Below, one piece after another: positions 3,846 through 60,309 of a stretch of 64,000 nt of DNA. The stretch is taken from the NCBI RefSeq assembly GCF_003991155.1, contig NZ_CP031293.1; one strand, written 5' to 3'. Source of the stretch: Escherichia coli. GTDB lineage: Bacteria; Pseudomonadota; Gammaproteobacteria; Enterobacterales; Enterobacteriaceae. The notes below the pieces were generated by a model, which worked only from the letters and a program-made list of their open reading frames with translations, was not told the DNA's origin and did no database searches. The position numbers and the translations under genes are program-made. Position 1 is the stretch's first letter. Every line of letters starts with the position of its first letter.

Positions 3846-5204
3846 TTAAAATTTCAGGGCGTTAGCGATATCTTCTTCGCTCTCTTCTTTATCAATCGCG
3901 TTTTGTGCTTTGTTAGCGACCACAACAAAGGGCAGATAAATTAACGTTGCGATACCAAGGTTGAAGAGTGCAACCAGCAATGCGGCGACGCTACCGTTGG
4001 TGTTAAAGAAGGCTCCCAGACCGGTTGGCATGGTCCACGGTGCAATATTGGTCACCGGAGGAATAATGCCCATGTAGTACGCTGCCAGGGTGATTGCCGC
4101 CAGAATCGGTTGTACCAGTACAAACGGGATAAACATCACCGGGTTCATGATAATTGGCAGACCAAACAGAATCGGTTCGTTAATCTGGAAGATGCCGGAC
4201 GGCAGCGCCAGTTTTGCCACCTGACGATAATCAGCACGGCGAGAGGCGATAAAGATAGCCAGGATCAGACCTAAAGTCGCACCACTGCCCCCAAGGAAAA
4301 TAAAGGAGTCCAGCATCGGCTTGGCCCAGATATGGAAGGTCTTACCGGCTGCCAGCGCCGCTTCGACGGAACCATATTGCTGATAGGTCGCGATATTTTC
4401 CAGCGCCCACGGCGTCATAATGCCGTTGTCCAGTGCGGTCAGCGCCAGCGCACCATGAATACCGAAGAACCAGAGCAGTGGAACAAAGATCACATAGGCC
4501 CAGCCCACCACGCTACCCAACGATGCCAGTGGGGTTGAGATGGTATCCATAATGATCTGATGGAAGTTGGTGCCCCAGGTATTCAACGCCCAGGCAATAA
4601 TCCCCATCACGGAAAGAATAATAAAGCCGGGAATTAAAGCCGAGAAGGAACGCGATACTGAAGCAGGTACGCTATCGGGCAATTTAATGACCCAATTGCG
4701 GCGGACAATAAAGGTAAACATTTCTGCCACCACCAGGCCAATAATAATCCCGGAGATGATATTCGCCCCACCTAACCAGTTTGCGCCAACCGCATAGGCC
4801 TCACCGACACTATATGGGGTGACGGTCATAAATGCTGCAACGGATAACAACCCAGCCGCCAGCGCATCGACTTTACGCTCTTCTGCCAGCGCCATGCCAA
4901 TAAAGAACGGTGCCATTAAAGACATTATCCCTAATGTTCCGTTATATACGTTGCCGCCAATACCTTTCAGACCATTAAGTGTTTCAATGGTTGAGGCATC
5001 CAGGCGAATACCTAAGGAATAAAAAAACGACCCCTCCCCAAAGCTTAGAAAAACGTTGTTAATTAATACAAACATGGCCCCCGCAAGGGTTAACGGCATT
5101 AAGCGAATAAAGCCATTTTTGATTGCATTAACGTGTGGCTGCTTTCCTATTTTAACTGCAAAAGGGAGGAGTACCTTTTCAAGCGATGCAATAACATTAC
5201 TCAT
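3846..5204 (-). CDS. chbC: PTS chitobiose-specific EIIC permease
   Basis: 452-aa polytopic membrane protein, PTS EIIC lactose/cellobiose family. Confidence 0.9.
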
Positions 5205-56350: not shown

Positions 56351-56854
56351 ATGACTGAAATGGCTAAAGGAAGCGTGACGCATCAGCGGTTAATCGCTTT
56401 ATTATCGCAAGAAGGTGCTGACTTCCGCGTCGTTACCCATGAAGCGGTAGGTAAATGTGAAGCGGTGTCAGAAATTCGTGGCACCGCTTTAGGCCAGGGG
56501 GCTAAGGCACTGGTATGTAAAGTCAAAGGCAATGGCGTAAATCAACATGTTCTGGCGATCCTCGCTGCCGATCAACAGGCCGATCTGAGCCAACTCGCCA
56601 GCCATATAGGCGGATTACGCGCTTCGTTGGCCAGTCCGGCGGAAGTCGATGAACTCACAGGCTGTGTCTTCGGCGCGATCCCCCCTTTCAGCTTCCATCC
56701 AAAACTCAAACTGGTTGCCGACCCCCTACTCTTCGAACGATTTGATGAAATCGCCTTCAATGCAGGCATGCTGGATAAATCCGTTATTTTGAAAACCGCG
56801 GATTATTTGCGCATTGCGCAACCAGAACTGGTCAATTTCCGCCGCACTGCGTAA
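56351..56854 (+). CDS. yeaK: YbaK/ProX-type aminoacyl-tRNA deacylase-domain protein
   Basis: 167-aa ORF. Confidence 0.8.
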   Translation: MTEMAKGSVTHQRLIALLSQEGADFRVVTHEAVGKCEAVSEIRGTALGQGAKALVCKVKGNGVNQHVLAILAADQQADLSQLASHIGGLRASLASPAEVDELTGCVFGAIPPFSFHPKLKLVADPLLFERFDEIAFNAGMLDKSVILKTADYLRIAQPELVNFRRTA

Positions 56855-56959
56855 CTAGCCTGTCCGTTCGATAAGAAGAACGGACAAAACCAGCACAACA
56901 GCAATGGCAAAAAACGATGACGTGATAATCAGTGTCTCGACGAACATTTGATCGTTCAT
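56855..56959 (-). CDS. yoaI: small hydrophobic protein (34 aa) [34 protein letters not shown]
   Basis: Not in the ORF track (under 60 aa); single predicted TM helix; matches the small protein I remember as yoaI. Confidence 0.6.
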
Positions 56960-57128: not shown

Positions 57129-57575
57129 ATGTTTGATGTCACTTTGCTGATCCTGCTCGGGTTAGCTGCGCTGGGCTTTATCAGTCATAACACCACTGTC
57201 GCCGTTTCAATTCTGGTGTTGATTATTGTCCGCGTCACACCGTTAAGCACCTTTTTTCCGTGGATTGAAAAACAGGGGCTAAGTATCGGGATAATCATTC
57301 TGACGATTGGTGTTATGGCCCCCATCGCCAGCGGGACGCTACCGCCCTCAACCCTGATTCACTCGTTTCTGAACTGGAAATCGCTGGTGGCAATTGCAGT
57401 CGGCGTTATTGTCTCCTGGCTGGGAGGGCGCGGCGTGACGTTAATGGGCAGCCAGCCGCAACTGGTCGCCGGGTTGCTGGTGGGCACTGTTTTAGGCGTG
57501 GCGCTGTTTCGCGGCGTACCGGTTGGCCCGCTTATTGCCGCGGGTCTGGTTTCGCTGATTGTGGGGAAACAGTAG
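57129..57575 (+). CDS. yeaL: UPF0756/DUF441 inner membrane protein
   Basis: 148-aa hydrophobic ORF. Confidence 0.8.
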
Positions 57576-58353
57576 TTAATCCCGCAATATATCGGCCTGG
57601 CGTTTGCCCCAGGCCTTTCTTAAACATAGTAATAAAGGCCGTTGTTGAATCATACCCCAGCGTATGAGCAACTTTCTGTACAGTATCGCCTTTCACTAAT
57701 CCCTGAAGCGCCATAATCAGCTGTAACTGCTGACGCCACTGGCGAAAACTCAAGCCCGTCTCTTTCACTATCAGCCGGGCAAGATTGCGTTCACTCATCG
57801 CAAAAAAGCCAGCCCATTGCCCCAATGAGCCCCACTCGACGGGCTCTTTCGCCATCATCTCCACCATCGCGCGGATTTTAGGATGAGAAGAAACGGGTAG
57901 GTGCAGCTGTTGTTGTGGCTGCTGAGGGAGTTCATCAAACAGGACCTGAATTAATCTGCGGGTCATCGGCTCAGCACGCTGAGTCGTCGTCCTGTTTGCC
58001 AGGGTTAAAATTAATTCCCGGCATAAGGGCGATATTTTCAATGTGCAACAGGTTGTCGGCATTGTCACTGCGCTGGGTTCGATAAACAGAAAACAGAGTT
58101 CAGCGTTAGCTGTCACTTGATTGCTATGTTCCACCCCTCCCGGTATCCAAACCGCATATTGTGGCGGCACCATCCACAAAGCATTTTCCACCGTACAGGT
58201 AATTGCACCATGTAGCGCCAGTATCAGCTGTCCTTTGCGGTGCTGATGTACAGGACTGGTTAACTCATCCGTTCCGGCGTGAATACAAAATGCGACCGCG
58301 GCTTCATGGTGTCGGTCGGGTTCATAGCCATTGAGATTCAACCTGTGCATCAT
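57532..58353 (-). CDS. yeaM: AraC-family transcriptional regulator (cupin plus HTH)
   Basis: 273-aa ORF; 3' end overlaps yeaL 3' end. Confidence 0.8.
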
Positions 58354-58449
58354 TTTGTCCGAATTTAGCGATAATTTGTCATTTTAGCTTGATTCAACAT
58401 AACAATAAAAACGGTAAGGTACAGCCTCGTTTGTAACAATGAGAAGCAT

Positions 58450-59685: not shown

Positions 59686-60033
59686 ATGAATATTCAGTGC
59701 AAACGCGTTTATGATCCGGCTGAACAGAGCGATGGTTATCGCGTACTGGTCGACCGCCTCTGGCCGCGCGGTATCAAAAAAACCGATTTAGCCCTTGATG
59801 AGTGGGATAAAGAAATCACGCCGTCAACGGAACTGCGCAAAGCCTTTCACGGCGAAGTCGTCGATTTTGCAACCTTTCGCGAGCAATATCTTGCAGAACT
59901 GGCGCAACACGAGCAAGAAGGAAAGCGGCTGGCGAACATCGCCAAAAAACAGCCGCTGACCCTGCTCTACTCAGCAAAAAACACCACGCAGAACCATGCG
60001 CTGGTACTGGCAGACTGGCTACGTAGCTTGTGA
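59686..60033 (+). CDS. yeaO: DUF488 protein
   Basis: Start at MNIQCKRVYD, 115 aa. Confidence 0.75.
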   Translation: MNIQCKRVYDPAEQSDGYRVLVDRLWPRGIKKTDLALDEWDKEITPSTELRKAFHGEVVDFATFREQYLAELAQHEQEGKRLANIAKKQPLTLLYSAKNTTQNHALVLADWLRSL

Positions 60034-60054
60034 TTTTAGTACGCCATCCGGCGG

Positions 60055-60309
60055 TTATTTTTCACCAGCCGGATGGTCCCGTCGCCACAATGCCCATTCA
60101 TCAATCGTTTCACCGCCCGGTAATTTGCAATTGTTGCTGACCCCTTGCGCTGTCTGCACAGGAATGAGCGTCCCGCCCTTCTGCTGGCAATAGACCGACG
60201 CCGGATTTGCCATACCAATCTGTGGCGGTTTAGGTGCTTCTGGCTGAGAAGGGGTTGAACAACCAGCCAGGACCAGCAAGCAAGGCAGAACAAAACTGAT
60301 AATTTTCAT
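60055..60309 (-). CDS. yoaF: DUF333 lipoprotein
   Basis: 84-aa ORF with lipobox LAGC. Confidence 0.75.
   Translation of the reverse strand: MKIISFVLPCLLVLAGCSTPSQPEAPKPPQIGMANPASVYCQQKGGTLIPVQTAQGVSNNCKLPGGETIDEWALWRRDHPAGEK

What the first reader, a model, noticed from the sequence alone, without database searches (positions are those of the whole stretch)
57532..57575. Convergent 44-bp coding overlap between yeaL and the AraC-family regulator yeaM
Seen directly: the yeaL stop (57575) and yeaM stop (57532) overlap on opposite strands. The yeaM regulator is also divergent from the transporter yeaN, so expression of the regulator and of two membrane proteins may be linked.
Basis: seen in the sequence. 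Interest (0 to 1): 0.25.

Follow-up and report, generated by a model that had tools for sequence, protein, structure and literature searches.

The report
Known yeaL–nimR tail-to-tail gene overlap
Two neighbouring E. coli genes on opposite strands really do share their last 44 bases, but this is already in the reference annotation and looks like a harmless by-product of a drifting stop codon; the more interesting detail is that the stop signal for transcribing one gene lies inside the coding sequence of the other.

Summary
yeaL (57129-57575, +) and yeaM, now called nimR (57532-58353, -), share 44 bp. The same overlap is annotated in RefSeq for E. coli K-12 and other strains.

It is an ordinary convergent overlap made by stop-codon movement. 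In 31 of 61 enterobacterial loci where the genes are adjacent, nimR stops 9 codons earlier, giving a 17-bp overlap. In Escherichia and Citrobacter, one A-to-G change turned that stop into Gln; the same change makes yeaL Ile145 into Val.

The extra NimR tail is unconstrained. All 10 substitutions inside yeaL codons of the overlap are silent for YeaL and change NimR. Across genera the junction runs from an 8-bp gap to a 44-bp overlap.

Because there is no spacer, the transcripts must overlap. A canonical terminator hairpin for yeaL sits inside the nimR coding sequence at 57594-57621. It is preserved at synonymous sites in Escherichia, Citrobacter and Salmonella (P about 1e-5).

A 2025 RNA-seq survey already lists yeaL-nimR as a convergent "excludon". 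Regulatory coupling of yeaL to nimR/nimT is untested. NimR is reported to have a single target, the nimR/nimT spacer. Interest is low.

The parts
57129..57575 (+). yeaL coding sequence: a 148-aa inner-membrane protein of family DUF441/UPF0756, function unknown
   Evidence: ORF. Pfam DUF441 matches residues 7-145 against the full 139-position model, E 2.7e-44. RefSeq annotation. 93-98% amino-acid identity to Citrobacter, Salmonella and strain E69.
57532..58353 (-). nimR (yeaM) coding sequence: a 273-aa AraC-family regulator. Its HTH domain ends at residue 255. Residues 256-273 form a variable tail.
   Evidence: ORF. Pfam HTH_18 matches residues 180-255; HTH_AraC and AraC_binding also match. RefSeq annotation. 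Ortholog lengths range from 256 to 273 aa.
57532..57575 (.). The 44-bp tail-to-tail coding overlap. yeaL codon position 3 lies opposite nimR codon position 2.
   Evidence: Among 13 taxa with the 44-bp overlap, 10 of 10 substitutions inside yeaL codons are synonymous in yeaL and non-synonymous in nimR.
57559..57561 (-). nimR codon 265, CAA (Gln) here. It is a stop codon (TAA or TGA) in the 31 loci with a 17-bp overlap. Base 57561 is also the first base of yeaL codon 145 (GTG Val here; ATT or ATC Ile in nearly all 17-bp loci).
   Evidence: The two Citrobacter youngae strains, CCUG 30791 (ATTGTT, 44 bp) and ATCC 29220 (ATTATT, 17 bp), carry G versus A at this base. In-frame stops fall at codons 265, 274 and 316.
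57594..57615 (+). Hairpin GGCCTGG-N8-CCAGGCC starting 19 nt after the yeaL stop. It is the inferred stem-loop of the yeaL intrinsic terminator. It is built from the first base of nimR codon R254 through codon G247 (P-G...G-L-G of the HTH C-terminus).
   Evidence: Terminator scan. Folding gives -14.1 kcal/mol. The stem is perfect in 19 of 20 Escherichia, Citrobacter and Salmonella sequences, with dG -13 to -20, against a median of -6.4 in other genera. The four stem codons GGC, CTG, CCA and GGC are near-invariant at synonymous sites, while the loop codons vary.
57616..57621 (+). T-tract TTTCTT directly after the hairpin (TTTTTT in 16 of the 20 Escherichia/Citrobacter/Salmonella sequences). It is the antisense of nimR Lys245-Lys246. 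The predicted yeaL RNA 3' end is near 57620-57624, which is K-12 1874843-1874847.
   Evidence: The 3' end is inferred; it has not been mapped.
57376..57531 (-). C-rich, G-poor stretch of the nimR-sense RNA just downstream of the nimR stop, antisense to yeaL. It is a candidate Rho-loading region. No intrinsic terminator for nimR was found.
   Evidence: C/G ratio 1.4-1.8 in 78-nt windows over the first ~156 nt. No terminator-like site on the - strand between 56800 and 57531. The role of Rho is inferred.
58354..58449 (.). nimR-nimT divergent intergenic region (96 bp). It is the single genomic SELEX target reported for NimR.
   Evidence: Coordinates. Target reported in PMC5934670.
58450..59631 (+). 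nimT (yeaN): a 393-aa MFS transporter (2-nitroimidazole exporter), divergent from nimR
   Evidence: Pfam MFS_1, E 2e-25. Annotation. Adjacent to nimR in all 80 related loci.

Best explanation
The 44-bp overlap is a real, already annotated tail-to-tail overlap. It arose by neutral movement of the nimR stop codon.

Shown:
- yeaL and nimR abut with essentially no spacer throughout the core Enterobacteriaceae.
- The yeaL stop is fixed, while the nimR stop wanders from 8 bp before it to 44 bp past it.
- The commonest state is a stop at nimR codon 265, giving a 17-bp overlap.
- Escherichia and most Citrobacter carry G instead of A at window position 57561. This is a conservative Ile145Val change in YeaL and at the same time turns the nimR stop (TAA) into Gln (CAA). 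NimR therefore reads 9 more codons to the next in-frame stop.
- The added tail lies beyond the HTH domain. Its sequence simply follows yeaL's silent sites.

Inferred consequences for expression:
- With no spacer, each transcript must end inside the other gene.
- yeaL transcription most likely ends at an intrinsic terminator embedded in nimR codons 245-254. This is a 7-9 bp GC-rich hairpin plus a T-tract, 19 nt after the yeaL stop. It would give about 90 nt of obligatory antisense overlap with the 3' end of the nimR mRNA.
- nimR has no intrinsic terminator and probably ends by Rho action in the C-rich RNA antisense to yeaL.
- Any cross-talk between yeaL and nimR/nimT would run through this transcript overlap (polymerase collision or RNase III cleavage), not through the 44 shared coding bases themselves.
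For: Overlap and annotation.

Distribution of overlaps in 80 related loci plus the window: 44 bp in 13, 17 bp in 31, others between -8 and +29, and not adjacent in 20.

Origin of the 44-bp state:
- The YeaL C-terminus reads LIVGKQ in all 13 loci with the 44-bp overlap and (F/I/L)IGK(S/Q/A/G/T) in the 17-bp loci.
- The two C. youngae strains carry G (44 bp) versus A (17 bp) at this base.

The NimR tail is unconstrained:
- 10 of 10 substitutions inside yeaL codons of the overlap are silent in yeaL and change the amino acid in nimR, including D/V, P/L/R and K/R/I/T.
- yeaL synonymous variability is no lower inside the overlap: mean third-position entropy (H3) 1.15 against 1.00 for the rest of the gene.
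- NimR orthologs end 3-18 residues after PGRY.
- The K-12 and window alleles differ by G258R in the tail.

Embedded terminator:
- Found by the scan; folds at -14.1 kcal/mol.
- Hairpin perfect in 19 of 20 Escherichia, Citrobacter and Salmonella sequences, median dG -13.4 against -6.4 elsewhere, Mann-Whitney p 1.6e-9.
- Of 95 degenerate codon columns with invariant amino acid in nimR, only 7 have third-position entropy of 0.30 or less. Four of those are exactly the four stem codons (hypergeometric P 1.1e-5). The loop codons have entropy 1.0-1.95.
- The 61-mer holding the hairpin is at least 95% identical in 5408 of 5426 complete E. coli genomes.

Transcript overlap:
- yeaL-nimR is listed among the convergent excludons of MG1655 (PMC12288877).
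- Sense/antisense reads in wild type are 4.5/2.9 RPM for yeaL and 17.6/0.84 RPM for yeaM (PMC7373196 Table S1c).
- The 0.84 RPM antisense on nimR is about what about 90 nt of yeaL read-through would give. This is my own arithmetic.

nimR 3' end: a C/G ratio of 1.4-1.8 downstream of the nimR stop and no intrinsic terminator on that strand.
Against: - No mapped RNA 3' end supports the embedded terminator. The Term-seq supplementary tables held as text have no yeaL or nimR rows, and the other tables were not available.
- For the single E. coli sequence, the hairpin's folding energy is not exceptional against shuffles (z -1.42). The case rests on comparative conservation.
- The stem pairs never co-vary; they are simply invariant. 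A palindromic DNA site or a structure in the nimR-sense RNA would leave the same signature. One Citrobacter variant (L011) keeps a G-U pair only in the nimR-sense RNA.
- The hairpin sites were picked after seeing the E. coli sequence, so the P value is semi-post hoc, and the 20 sequences are phylogenetically related.
- The direction of the 17-to-44 bp change is inferred from the taxon distribution, not from a rooted tree.
- A zero-spacer junction kept across many genera, plus the excludon listing, leaves room for a selected function of the transcript overlap.
Confidence: 0.8

Rival explanations
1. The pair is a functional excludon. The overlapping 3' transcripts make yeaL and nimR expression mutually antagonistic, through RNA polymerase collision and/or RNase III cleavage of the duplex. 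yeaL transcription would then modulate NimR levels, and through NimR the nimT exporter.
For: - yeaL-nimR is listed in the MG1655 convergent excludome, meaning it was detected in at least 50% of 58 RNA-seq samples (PMC12288877).
- Antisense reads within yeaL are 34-65% of sense reads, and p19-captured dsRNA reads are recorded for both genes (PMC7373196 Tables S1b and S1c).
- The zero-spacer arrangement is kept across many genera.
- A conserved terminator embedded in nimR would guarantee about 90 nt of overlap whenever yeaL is transcribed.
Against: - Both genes are weakly expressed under the conditions sampled (a few RPM), so collisions would be rare.
- No reciprocal expression data exist for this pair.
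- NimR is reported to autoregulate through a single site in the nimR/nimT spacer, which would buffer small effects.
- Antisense signal over nimR is only about 5% of sense.
- The length of the coding overlap is not conserved.
- nimR-nimT exists without an adjacent yeaL in 20 of the 80 related loci.
Confidence: 0.2
2. The 9-residue extension of NimR, and hence the 44-bp overlap, is itself selected because the longer C-terminal tail has a function in Escherichia and Citrobacter.
For: - The 44-bp state is found in the window strain and in 12 of 18 Citrobacter or Citrobacter-like loci.
- Among complete E. coli genomes, 3562 are identical to the window over a 61-mer spanning the overlap and 5408 of 5426 are at least 95% identical.
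- No genome has the stop-restoring G57561A change on the window allele.
Against: - Tail residues vary radically between species while YeaL stays invariant; 10 of 10 substitutions change the NimR amino acid.
- Close relatives have shorter tails with the domain intact: strain E69 and C. youngae ATCC 29220 264 aa, C. amalonaticus 265 aa, C. werkmanii 257 aa, Salmonella 258 and 265 aa.
- The tail lies outside the Pfam HTH match, which ends at residue 255.
Confidence: 0.04
3. The conserved palindrome inside nimR is not the yeaL terminator. It is kept for another reason, such as a structure in the nimR mRNA itself or a protein-binding inverted repeat in the DNA.
For: - The stem is a perfect palindrome, so it forms equally in the nimR-sense RNA.
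- The one natural variant (L011) is G-U compatible only in the nimR sense.
- There is no covariation and no mapped 3' end.
Against: - The element has the full anatomy of an intrinsic terminator only on the yeaL strand. A T-tract of 5-6 T in the first 6 bases follows directly after the stem in all 20 Escherichia, Citrobacter and Salmonella sequences, and the hairpin starts a fixed 19 nt after the yeaL stop (18 nt in the two Salmonella sequences).
- On the nimR strand no T-tract follows it.
- yeaL has no other candidate terminator downstream of its stop.
Confidence: 0.15
4. The overlap is an annotation artefact: one ORF is not a gene or is mis-delimited.
For: Long convergent overlaps are sometimes caused by sequencing errors or frameshifts that extend a 3' end (PMC2478687).
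Against: - Both products match curated families over their full domains.
- Both are conserved in 60 or more genomes.
- The same stops occur in thousands of independent E. coli assemblies.
- The overlap is defined by stop codons, not by start-codon choice.
Confidence: 0.01

Closest known systems
Convergent (tail-to-tail) overlapping gene pairs of prokaryotes created by stop-codon loss or shift (Rogozin 2002 and Fukuda 2003, from my own knowledge; PMC2478687; PMC4161906)
   Same: The two real genes lie on opposite strands and share their 3' ends. One gene is extended relative to its orthologs after losing a stop codon. The state is conserved only among close relatives. The length is below 60 bp. 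E. coli K-12 has 75 such pairs.
   Different: Nothing essential differs. Here the causal substitution can be pinpointed: one transition that is Ile-to-Val in one gene and stop-to-Gln in the other.
Convergent excludons, that is, overlapping 3' transcript ends of convergent operons in E. coli (Conway et al. 2014, PMC4161252; ExcludonFinder 2025, PMC12288877)
   Same: yeaL-nimR is itself listed in the MG1655 excludome. A terminator embedded in the neighbour's transcription unit is the configuration those authors report for 146 of 165 convergent excludons.
   Different: In most catalogued cases the overlap involves UTRs across a short intergenic region (mean 95 nt). Here there is no intergenic region, and the terminator is built from codons of the partner's DNA-binding domain. 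Mutually exclusive expression has not been shown for this pair.
ilvA-ilvY convergent genes of E. coli, with overlapping transcription and termination (Sameshima, Wek and Hatfield 1989; cited in PMC4161252; recalled, the paper is not held)
   Same: A classical case in which convergent transcripts overlap at their 3' ends.
   Different: I could not read the paper, so the exact terminator positions were not compared. The resemblance is a lead from memory only.
Bidirectional intrinsic terminators between convergent genes (SEnd-seq, Ju et al. 2019; from my own knowledge; bioRxiv 10.1101/2022.10.23.513370 listed)
   Same: A single GC-rich hairpin sits at the junction of a convergent gene pair.
   Different: A T-tract flanks the hairpin on the yeaL strand only. 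On the nimR strand the hairpin lies 20 codons before the stop codon and is not followed by a T-tract. It is therefore not bidirectional.

Membership tests
Convergent overlapping gene pair by stop-codon shift | Both overlapping ORFs are genuine protein-coding genes | tested here: met
   Pfam DUF441 (E 2.7e-44) and HTH_18/AraC (E 1.5e-18). Orthologs in 60-80 genomes. RefSeq CDS features.
Convergent overlapping gene pair by stop-codon shift | The stop codons lie on opposite strands, with each gene's 3' end inside the other's coding sequence | tested here: met
   yeaL stop at 57573-57575 (+); nimR stop at 57532-57534 (-).
Convergent overlapping gene pair by stop-codon shift | One gene is 3'-extended relative to its orthologs because an ancestral stop was lost | tested here: met
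   NimR is 264 aa in 29 of the 31 loci with the 17-bp overlap (259 and 263 aa in two Leclercia loci) and 273 aa here. Codon 265 is TAA or TGA there and CAA here. The polarity is inferred from the taxon distribution, not from a rooted tree.
Convergent overlapping gene pair by stop-codon shift | The overlapped part of the extended gene shows relaxed constraint | tested here: met
   10 of 10 substitutions are synonymous in yeaL and non-synonymous in nimR. yeaL synonymous variability inside the overlap (mean third-position entropy, H3, 1.15) is not lower than outside it (1.00).
Rho-independent (intrinsic) terminator (for the hairpin at 57594-57621) | A GC-rich stem of at least 5 bp with a short loop | tested here: met
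   7 bp with 6 GC pairs and an 8-nt loop. -14.1 kcal/mol. 7-9 bp in relatives.
Rho-independent (intrinsic) terminator (for the hairpin at 57594-57621) | A U/T-tract immediately 3' of the stem on the transcribed strand | tested here: met
   TTTCTT in E. coli. TTTTTT in 16 of 20 Escherichia, Citrobacter and Salmonella sequences.
Rho-independent (intrinsic) terminator (for the hairpin at 57594-57621) | Position shortly downstream of the stop codon of a gene on the same strand | tested here: met
   The hairpin starts 19 nt after the yeaL stop in Escherichia and Citrobacter (18 nt in the two Salmonella sequences).
Rho-independent (intrinsic) terminator (for the hairpin at 57594-57621) | Evolutionary conservation of the structure beyond what coding requires | tested here: met
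   The four stem codons are near-invariant at synonymous sites, while the loop and neighbouring codons vary; P 1.1e-5. This holds only in Escherichia, Citrobacter and Salmonella; in other genera the codons vary freely.
Rho-independent (intrinsic) terminator (for the hairpin at 57594-57621) | An RNA 3' end mapped at the T-tract, or termination shown in vitro | not testable with these tools
   The supplementary tables held for two Term-seq papers contain no yeaL or nimR rows. Other tables are not held.
Bidirectional terminator | The hairpin is flanked by an A-tract upstream and a T-tract downstream, so that it terminates both strands after both stop codons | tested here: not met
   A T-tract is present on the yeaL strand only. 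On the nimR strand the hairpin is followed by GATATATTGC and lies 20 codons before the nimR stop.
Excludon (regulatory overlapping transcription) | The transcripts of the two neighbouring genes overlap | tested here: met
   From the literature, not from my own data. The pair is listed in the MG1655 convergent excludome. Antisense reads occur in both genes. The overlap is also unavoidable from the coding overlap itself.
Excludon (regulatory overlapping transcription) | Reciprocal (mutually exclusive) expression of the two genes, dependent on the overlap or on RNase III | not testable with these tools
   Only gene-level RPM values are available. yeaL and yeaM values in the rnc mutants are not clearly different from wild type. 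No pair-specific experiment was found.
AraC/XylS-family regulator NimR with divergent target nimT | A C-terminal AraC-type double HTH, an N-terminal cupin or AraC-binding domain, and a divergently transcribed target gene | tested here: met
   Pfam matches. nimT is adjacent and divergent in 80 of 80 loci. NimR binding to the spacer is from the literature only.

The most novel reading that the evidence does not exclude
The palindrome built from the codons for G-L-G...P-G-R of NimR's DNA-binding domain could be a selected dual-use sequence: protein-coding on one strand and the intrinsic terminator of the convergent gene yeaL on the other. It would have been acquired in the Escherichia-Citrobacter-Salmonella ancestor. 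It would hard-wire about 90 nt of antisense overlap, so that yeaL transcription measurably tunes NimR levels and, through NimR, nimT-mediated 2-nitroimidazole export.
Probability: 0.12. Interest if true: 0.4.

Novelty: already known. Interest (0 to 1): 0.14.

Why it matters
As reported, the finding matters little. The overlap is in the reference annotation of E. coli K-12, is one of about 75 convergent coding overlaps in that genome, and is already listed as a convergent excludon.

The follow-up adds three modest points.
- It is a clean worked example of how such overlaps arise: one transition that is conservative in one gene and removes the stop in the other.
- It gives direct evidence that the overlapped tail of the regulator is evolutionarily free.
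- It gives comparative evidence that a transcription terminator can be maintained by selection on synonymous sites inside the coding sequence of the convergent neighbour.

The last point is useful for people who recode genes, because "silent" changes in nimR codons 247-253 could remove yeaL's terminator. It is also useful for annotating terminators, which most tools seek only in intergenic DNA.

Tried and rejected
1. My first overlap table suggested overlaps of 119-281 bp in Enterobacter, Lelliottia and Klebsiella indica. This was a bug: the tblastn alignments ran through an internal stop codon. After translating to the first stop, those loci all have the 17-bp overlap.

2. Rfam gave one sub-threshold JUMPstart match (57335-57364, - strand, 21.5 bits against a gathering score of 35, E 0.1) that contains an ops-like GGCGGTAGCGTC antisense to yeaL. 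The yeaL codons that carry it (T70, L71, P72) vary freely at synonymous sites in relatives. I rejected it as chance.

3. A terminator-like hairpin lies on nimR's own sense strand inside nimR (57831..57811). None of its codons is among the synonymous-invariant columns, so it is probably chance.

4. I looked for mapped RNA 3' ends in published supplements:
- PMC7815308 and PMC12207403 hold tables but have no yeaL or nimR rows.
- PMC9023263, PMC12259150, PMC6061677, PMC4161252 and PMC12288877 have no supplementary text held.
- The ilvA-ilvY paper is not held.

5. I tested whether the overlap constrains yeaL's silent sites. It does not.

6. I searched 5426 E. coli genomes for a stop-restoring G57561A allele. 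There is no exact match on the window allele. Variants on other backgrounds were not enumerated.

7. The first paper search was diluted by word-start matches to unrelated words. One search was rejected for syntax.
Full report
**Observation.**
The window is E. coli chromosome. A 1.5-kb query around the site matches 5411 of 5426 complete E. coli genomes, one of them at 100%. The ORF list and sequence show yeaL at 57129-57575 on the + strand and yeaM, now called nimR, at 57532-58353 on the - strand. They share 57532-57575, which is 44 bp. RefSeq annotates exactly this in the identical strain and in K-12 MG1655 (yeaL 1874352-1874798, nimR 1874755-1875576).

YeaL matches Pfam DUF441 over the whole model. 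NimR has an AraC-type HTH ending at residue 255, plus an AraC-binding/cupin domain. The divergent neighbour nimT is an MFS transporter. The overlap is delimited by two stop codons, so start-codon choices are irrelevant.

**Is it unusual?**
No. Huvet and Stumpf count 663 overlapping adjacent pairs in E. coli K-12, of which 75 are convergent, and attribute convergent overlaps to stop-codon movement (PMC4161906). Palleja et al. find that convergent orientation is the only one that tolerates long overlaps, and that such overlaps often reflect a 3' extension after loss of a stop (PMC2478687).

**Comparative anatomy.**
A scan of one genome per species returned 80 loci that encode NimR relatives. My first table contained a bug that produced spurious overlaps of 119-281 bp, because the alignments ran through a stop codon. 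The corrected table gives:
- 44 bp in the window and 12 Citrobacter or Citrobacter-like loci.
- 17 bp in 31 loci (Klebsiella, Raoultella, Enterobacter, Lelliottia, Leclercia, Pluralibacter, "E. coli" E69, C. youngae ATCC 29220).
- 29, 21 and 20 bp in a few loci.
- From a 6-bp overlap to an 8-bp gap in Trabulsiella, Siccibacter, Buttiauxella, Atlantibacter, Franconibacter, S. enterica arizonae and C. werkmanii.
- yeaL 118-1962 bp away or absent from the locus in 20 (Kosakonia, Phytobacter, Cedecea, Edwardsiella and others).

The yeaL stop never moves; the nimR stop does. nimT is adjacent and divergent in every locus, and the order yeaK-(yoaI)-yeaL-nimR-nimT-yeaO is widely kept.

**Origin of the 44-bp state.**
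All 13 loci with the 44-bp overlap have the YeaL C-terminus LIVGKQ. The 17-bp loci have (F/I/L)IGK(S/Q/A/G/T). At the DNA level, yeaL codons 144-145 read ATT GTG/GTT in the 44-bp group and NTT ATN or ATC ATC in the 17-bp group. On the other strand, this is nimR codon 265: CAA (Gln) in the first group and TAA or TGA (stop) in the second.

The two C. youngae strains, ATTGTT (44 bp) and ATTATT (17 bp), carry G versus A at this base. A single transition is therefore Ile145Val in YeaL and stop-to-Gln in NimR, and NimR then reads 9 more codons to the next in-frame stop. The in-frame stops fall at codons 265, 274 and then 316. The direction, 17 bp to 44 bp, is inferred from the wider taxonomic spread of the 17-bp state.

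**The tail is unconstrained.**
Among the 13 taxa with the 44-bp overlap, 11 columns vary. The 10 that lie in yeaL codons are all synonymous for YeaL. All of them change the NimR residue (D/V, P/L/R, K/R/I/T and so on), because yeaL codon position 3 lies opposite nimR position 2. yeaL's synonymous variability inside the overlap is not reduced: mean third-position entropy (H3) is 1.15 against 1.00 elsewhere.

NimR orthologs end anywhere from 3 to 18 residues after the conserved PGRY. K-12 and the window strain differ by G258R in the tail. The extension is passive translation of yeaL's antisense strand.

**Within E. coli.**
A 61-mer centred on the overlap is identical in 3562 genomes and at least 95% identical in 5408 of 5426. 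None carries G57561A on the window allele. One strain has an IS1 inserted at the junction, and its nimR is annotated with a different, longer end.

**Transcription.**
With no spacer, terminators cannot be intergenic. The scan found one terminator-like site downstream of yeaL on its own strand: GGCCTGG-N8-CCAGGCC at 57594-57615, followed by TTTCTT, starting 19 nt after the stop. It folds at -14.1 kcal/mol. It lies inside nimR, from the first base of codon R254 to codon G247, with the T-tract formed by K246-K245.

In Escherichia, Citrobacter and Salmonella (20 sequences) the stem is perfect in 19. Its dG is -13 to -20, and it abuts 5-6 T (TTTTTT in 16). In 60 sequences from other genera the same segment folds weakly, with a median of -6.4 (Mann-Whitney p 1.6e-9).

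Codon analysis shows why. In the first group the stem codons are Gly GGC (19 of 20), Leu CTG (20 of 20), Pro CCA (20 of 20; CCA is only 23% of Pro codons in these genes) and Gly GGC (20 of 20). The three loop codons have third-position entropies of 1.0-1.95. Of 95 degenerate codon columns with an invariant amino acid in nimR, only 7 have entropy of 0.30 or less, and 4 of those are these stem codons (P 1.1e-5). In the other genera the same codons vary freely.

I infer that this is the yeaL intrinsic terminator, maintained by selection on silent sites of nimR. The caveats are:
- The stems are invariant rather than co-varying.
- The sites were chosen after seeing the E. coli hairpin.
- No mapped 3' end was found.
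- A nimR-sense RNA structure or a DNA palindrome cannot be excluded.

The hairpin is not bidirectional, because no T-tract follows it on the nimR strand.

For nimR, no terminator-like site exists on the - strand between its stop and 56800. The RNA downstream of the stop is C-rich and G-poor, with C/G 1.4-1.8 over about 156 nt. This is the usual signature of a Rho loading site (inference).

**Published expression data.**
ExcludonFinder (NAR 2025, PMC12288877) lists yeaL-nimR among 165 convergent excludons of MG1655, together with the neighbouring pairs yeaK-yoaI and yeaO-yoaF. It reports that 146 of the 165 have terminators predicted inside the neighbour's transcription unit.

Huang et al. 2020 (PMC7373196, Table S1c) give wild-type sense/antisense RPM of 4.5/2.9 for yeaL and 17.6/0.84 for yeaM. 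So nimR-sense RNA runs appreciably into yeaL. Antisense RNA over nimR is small, about what 90 nt of yeaL 3' UTR would contribute (my arithmetic, gene-level data only).

Conway et al. 2014 found that 276 of 370 convergent operons have overlapping 3' ends, averaging 286 nt. NimR is reported as a single-target regulator of the nimR/nimT spacer. The yoaI/yeaL spacer binds PhoB, which activates yoaI but not yeaL. yeaL mRNA is reported as a target of the sRNA UhpU.

**Interpretation.**
The coding overlap is a neutral consequence of stop-codon drift at a junction that has had no spacer since early in the Enterobacteriaceae. The functionally relevant feature is the forced overlap of the two transcription units. 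For yeaL, this is probably fixed by a terminator embedded in nimR.

For yeaL it is plausible at the level of transcript overlap, which is already catalogued, but it is unsupported as regulation. The overlap length is not conserved, the tail is free, both genes are weakly expressed, and nimR-nimT exists without yeaL in a quarter of the loci.

**Verdict.**
The embedded, synonymously conserved terminator is a small new detail that is worth a 3'-end mapping experiment.

Noticed in passing
window 56351-56959: yeaK (+, ends 56854) and yoaI (-, 56855-56959) are convergent with no spacer at all: their stop codons abut. The pair is also listed as a convergent excludon. In published RNA-seq, antisense reads over yoaI exceed sense reads in wild type (13.4 against 2.35 RPM), which fits yeaK read-through.
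   Followed up: partly
window 59686-60309: yeaO (+, ends 60033) and yoaF (-, 60055-60309) are a third convergent pair in this 4-kb stretch, with a spacer of only 21 bp. This pair is also in the published excludon list. That makes three consecutive tight convergent junctions.
   Followed up: no
window 57335-57364 (- strand): Sub-threshold Rfam JUMPstart match (21.5 bits, E 0.1) containing an ops-like GGCGGTAGCGTC, antisense to yeaL codons 69-73. The underlying yeaL codons vary freely at silent sites in relatives, so it is probably chance.
   Followed up: yes
window 57811-57831 (- strand): Terminator-like hairpin plus GGCTTTTTTG on nimR's own sense strand, inside nimR at codons ~175-185. None of its codons is among the synonymous-invariant columns, so there is no sign that it is selected.
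   Followed up: partly
L084 (NZ_AP045826.1 2522260-2523510): In E. coli strain 23CRST051 an IS1 element sits at the yeaL-nimR junction. yeaL is not annotated in the stretch fetched, and nimR is annotated as 840 bp instead of 822 bp, so it has a different C-terminal end.
   Followed up: no
window 57582; L082 (K-12): K-12 and strain EC590 have T where the window has C. This changes NimR residue 258 from Gly to Arg, just outside the overlap. It is a radical polymorphism in the tail within the species.
   Followed up: partly
L002 (CP089930.1, 'Escherichia coli' E69): This genome, labelled E. coli, has only 89% NimR identity to the window and carries the 17-bp overlap (yeaL ...ATC ATC..., nimR stop TGA at codon 265). 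Its hairpin has a 9-bp stem, dG -19.9. It is probably a divergent Escherichia lineage.
   Followed up: no
L023 (Citrobacter werkmanii NBRC 105721), L047 (S. enterica arizonae): In these genomes NimR ends 2-3 residues after PGRY/PGQY (257 and 258 aa), so the genes do not overlap (4-bp gap and 0 bp). The whole tail therefore looks dispensable, unless these alleles are defective.
   Followed up: no
L060 (Kosakonia arachidis) 4318-4536; L074, L067, L080: In a few genomes, 118-1962 bp have been inserted between nimR and yeaL. Kosakonia arachidis keeps only a partial yeaL-like match (70% identity over about 73 residues), which suggests decay of yeaL in the Kosakonia lineage, where other species lack an adjacent yeaL.
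   Followed up: no
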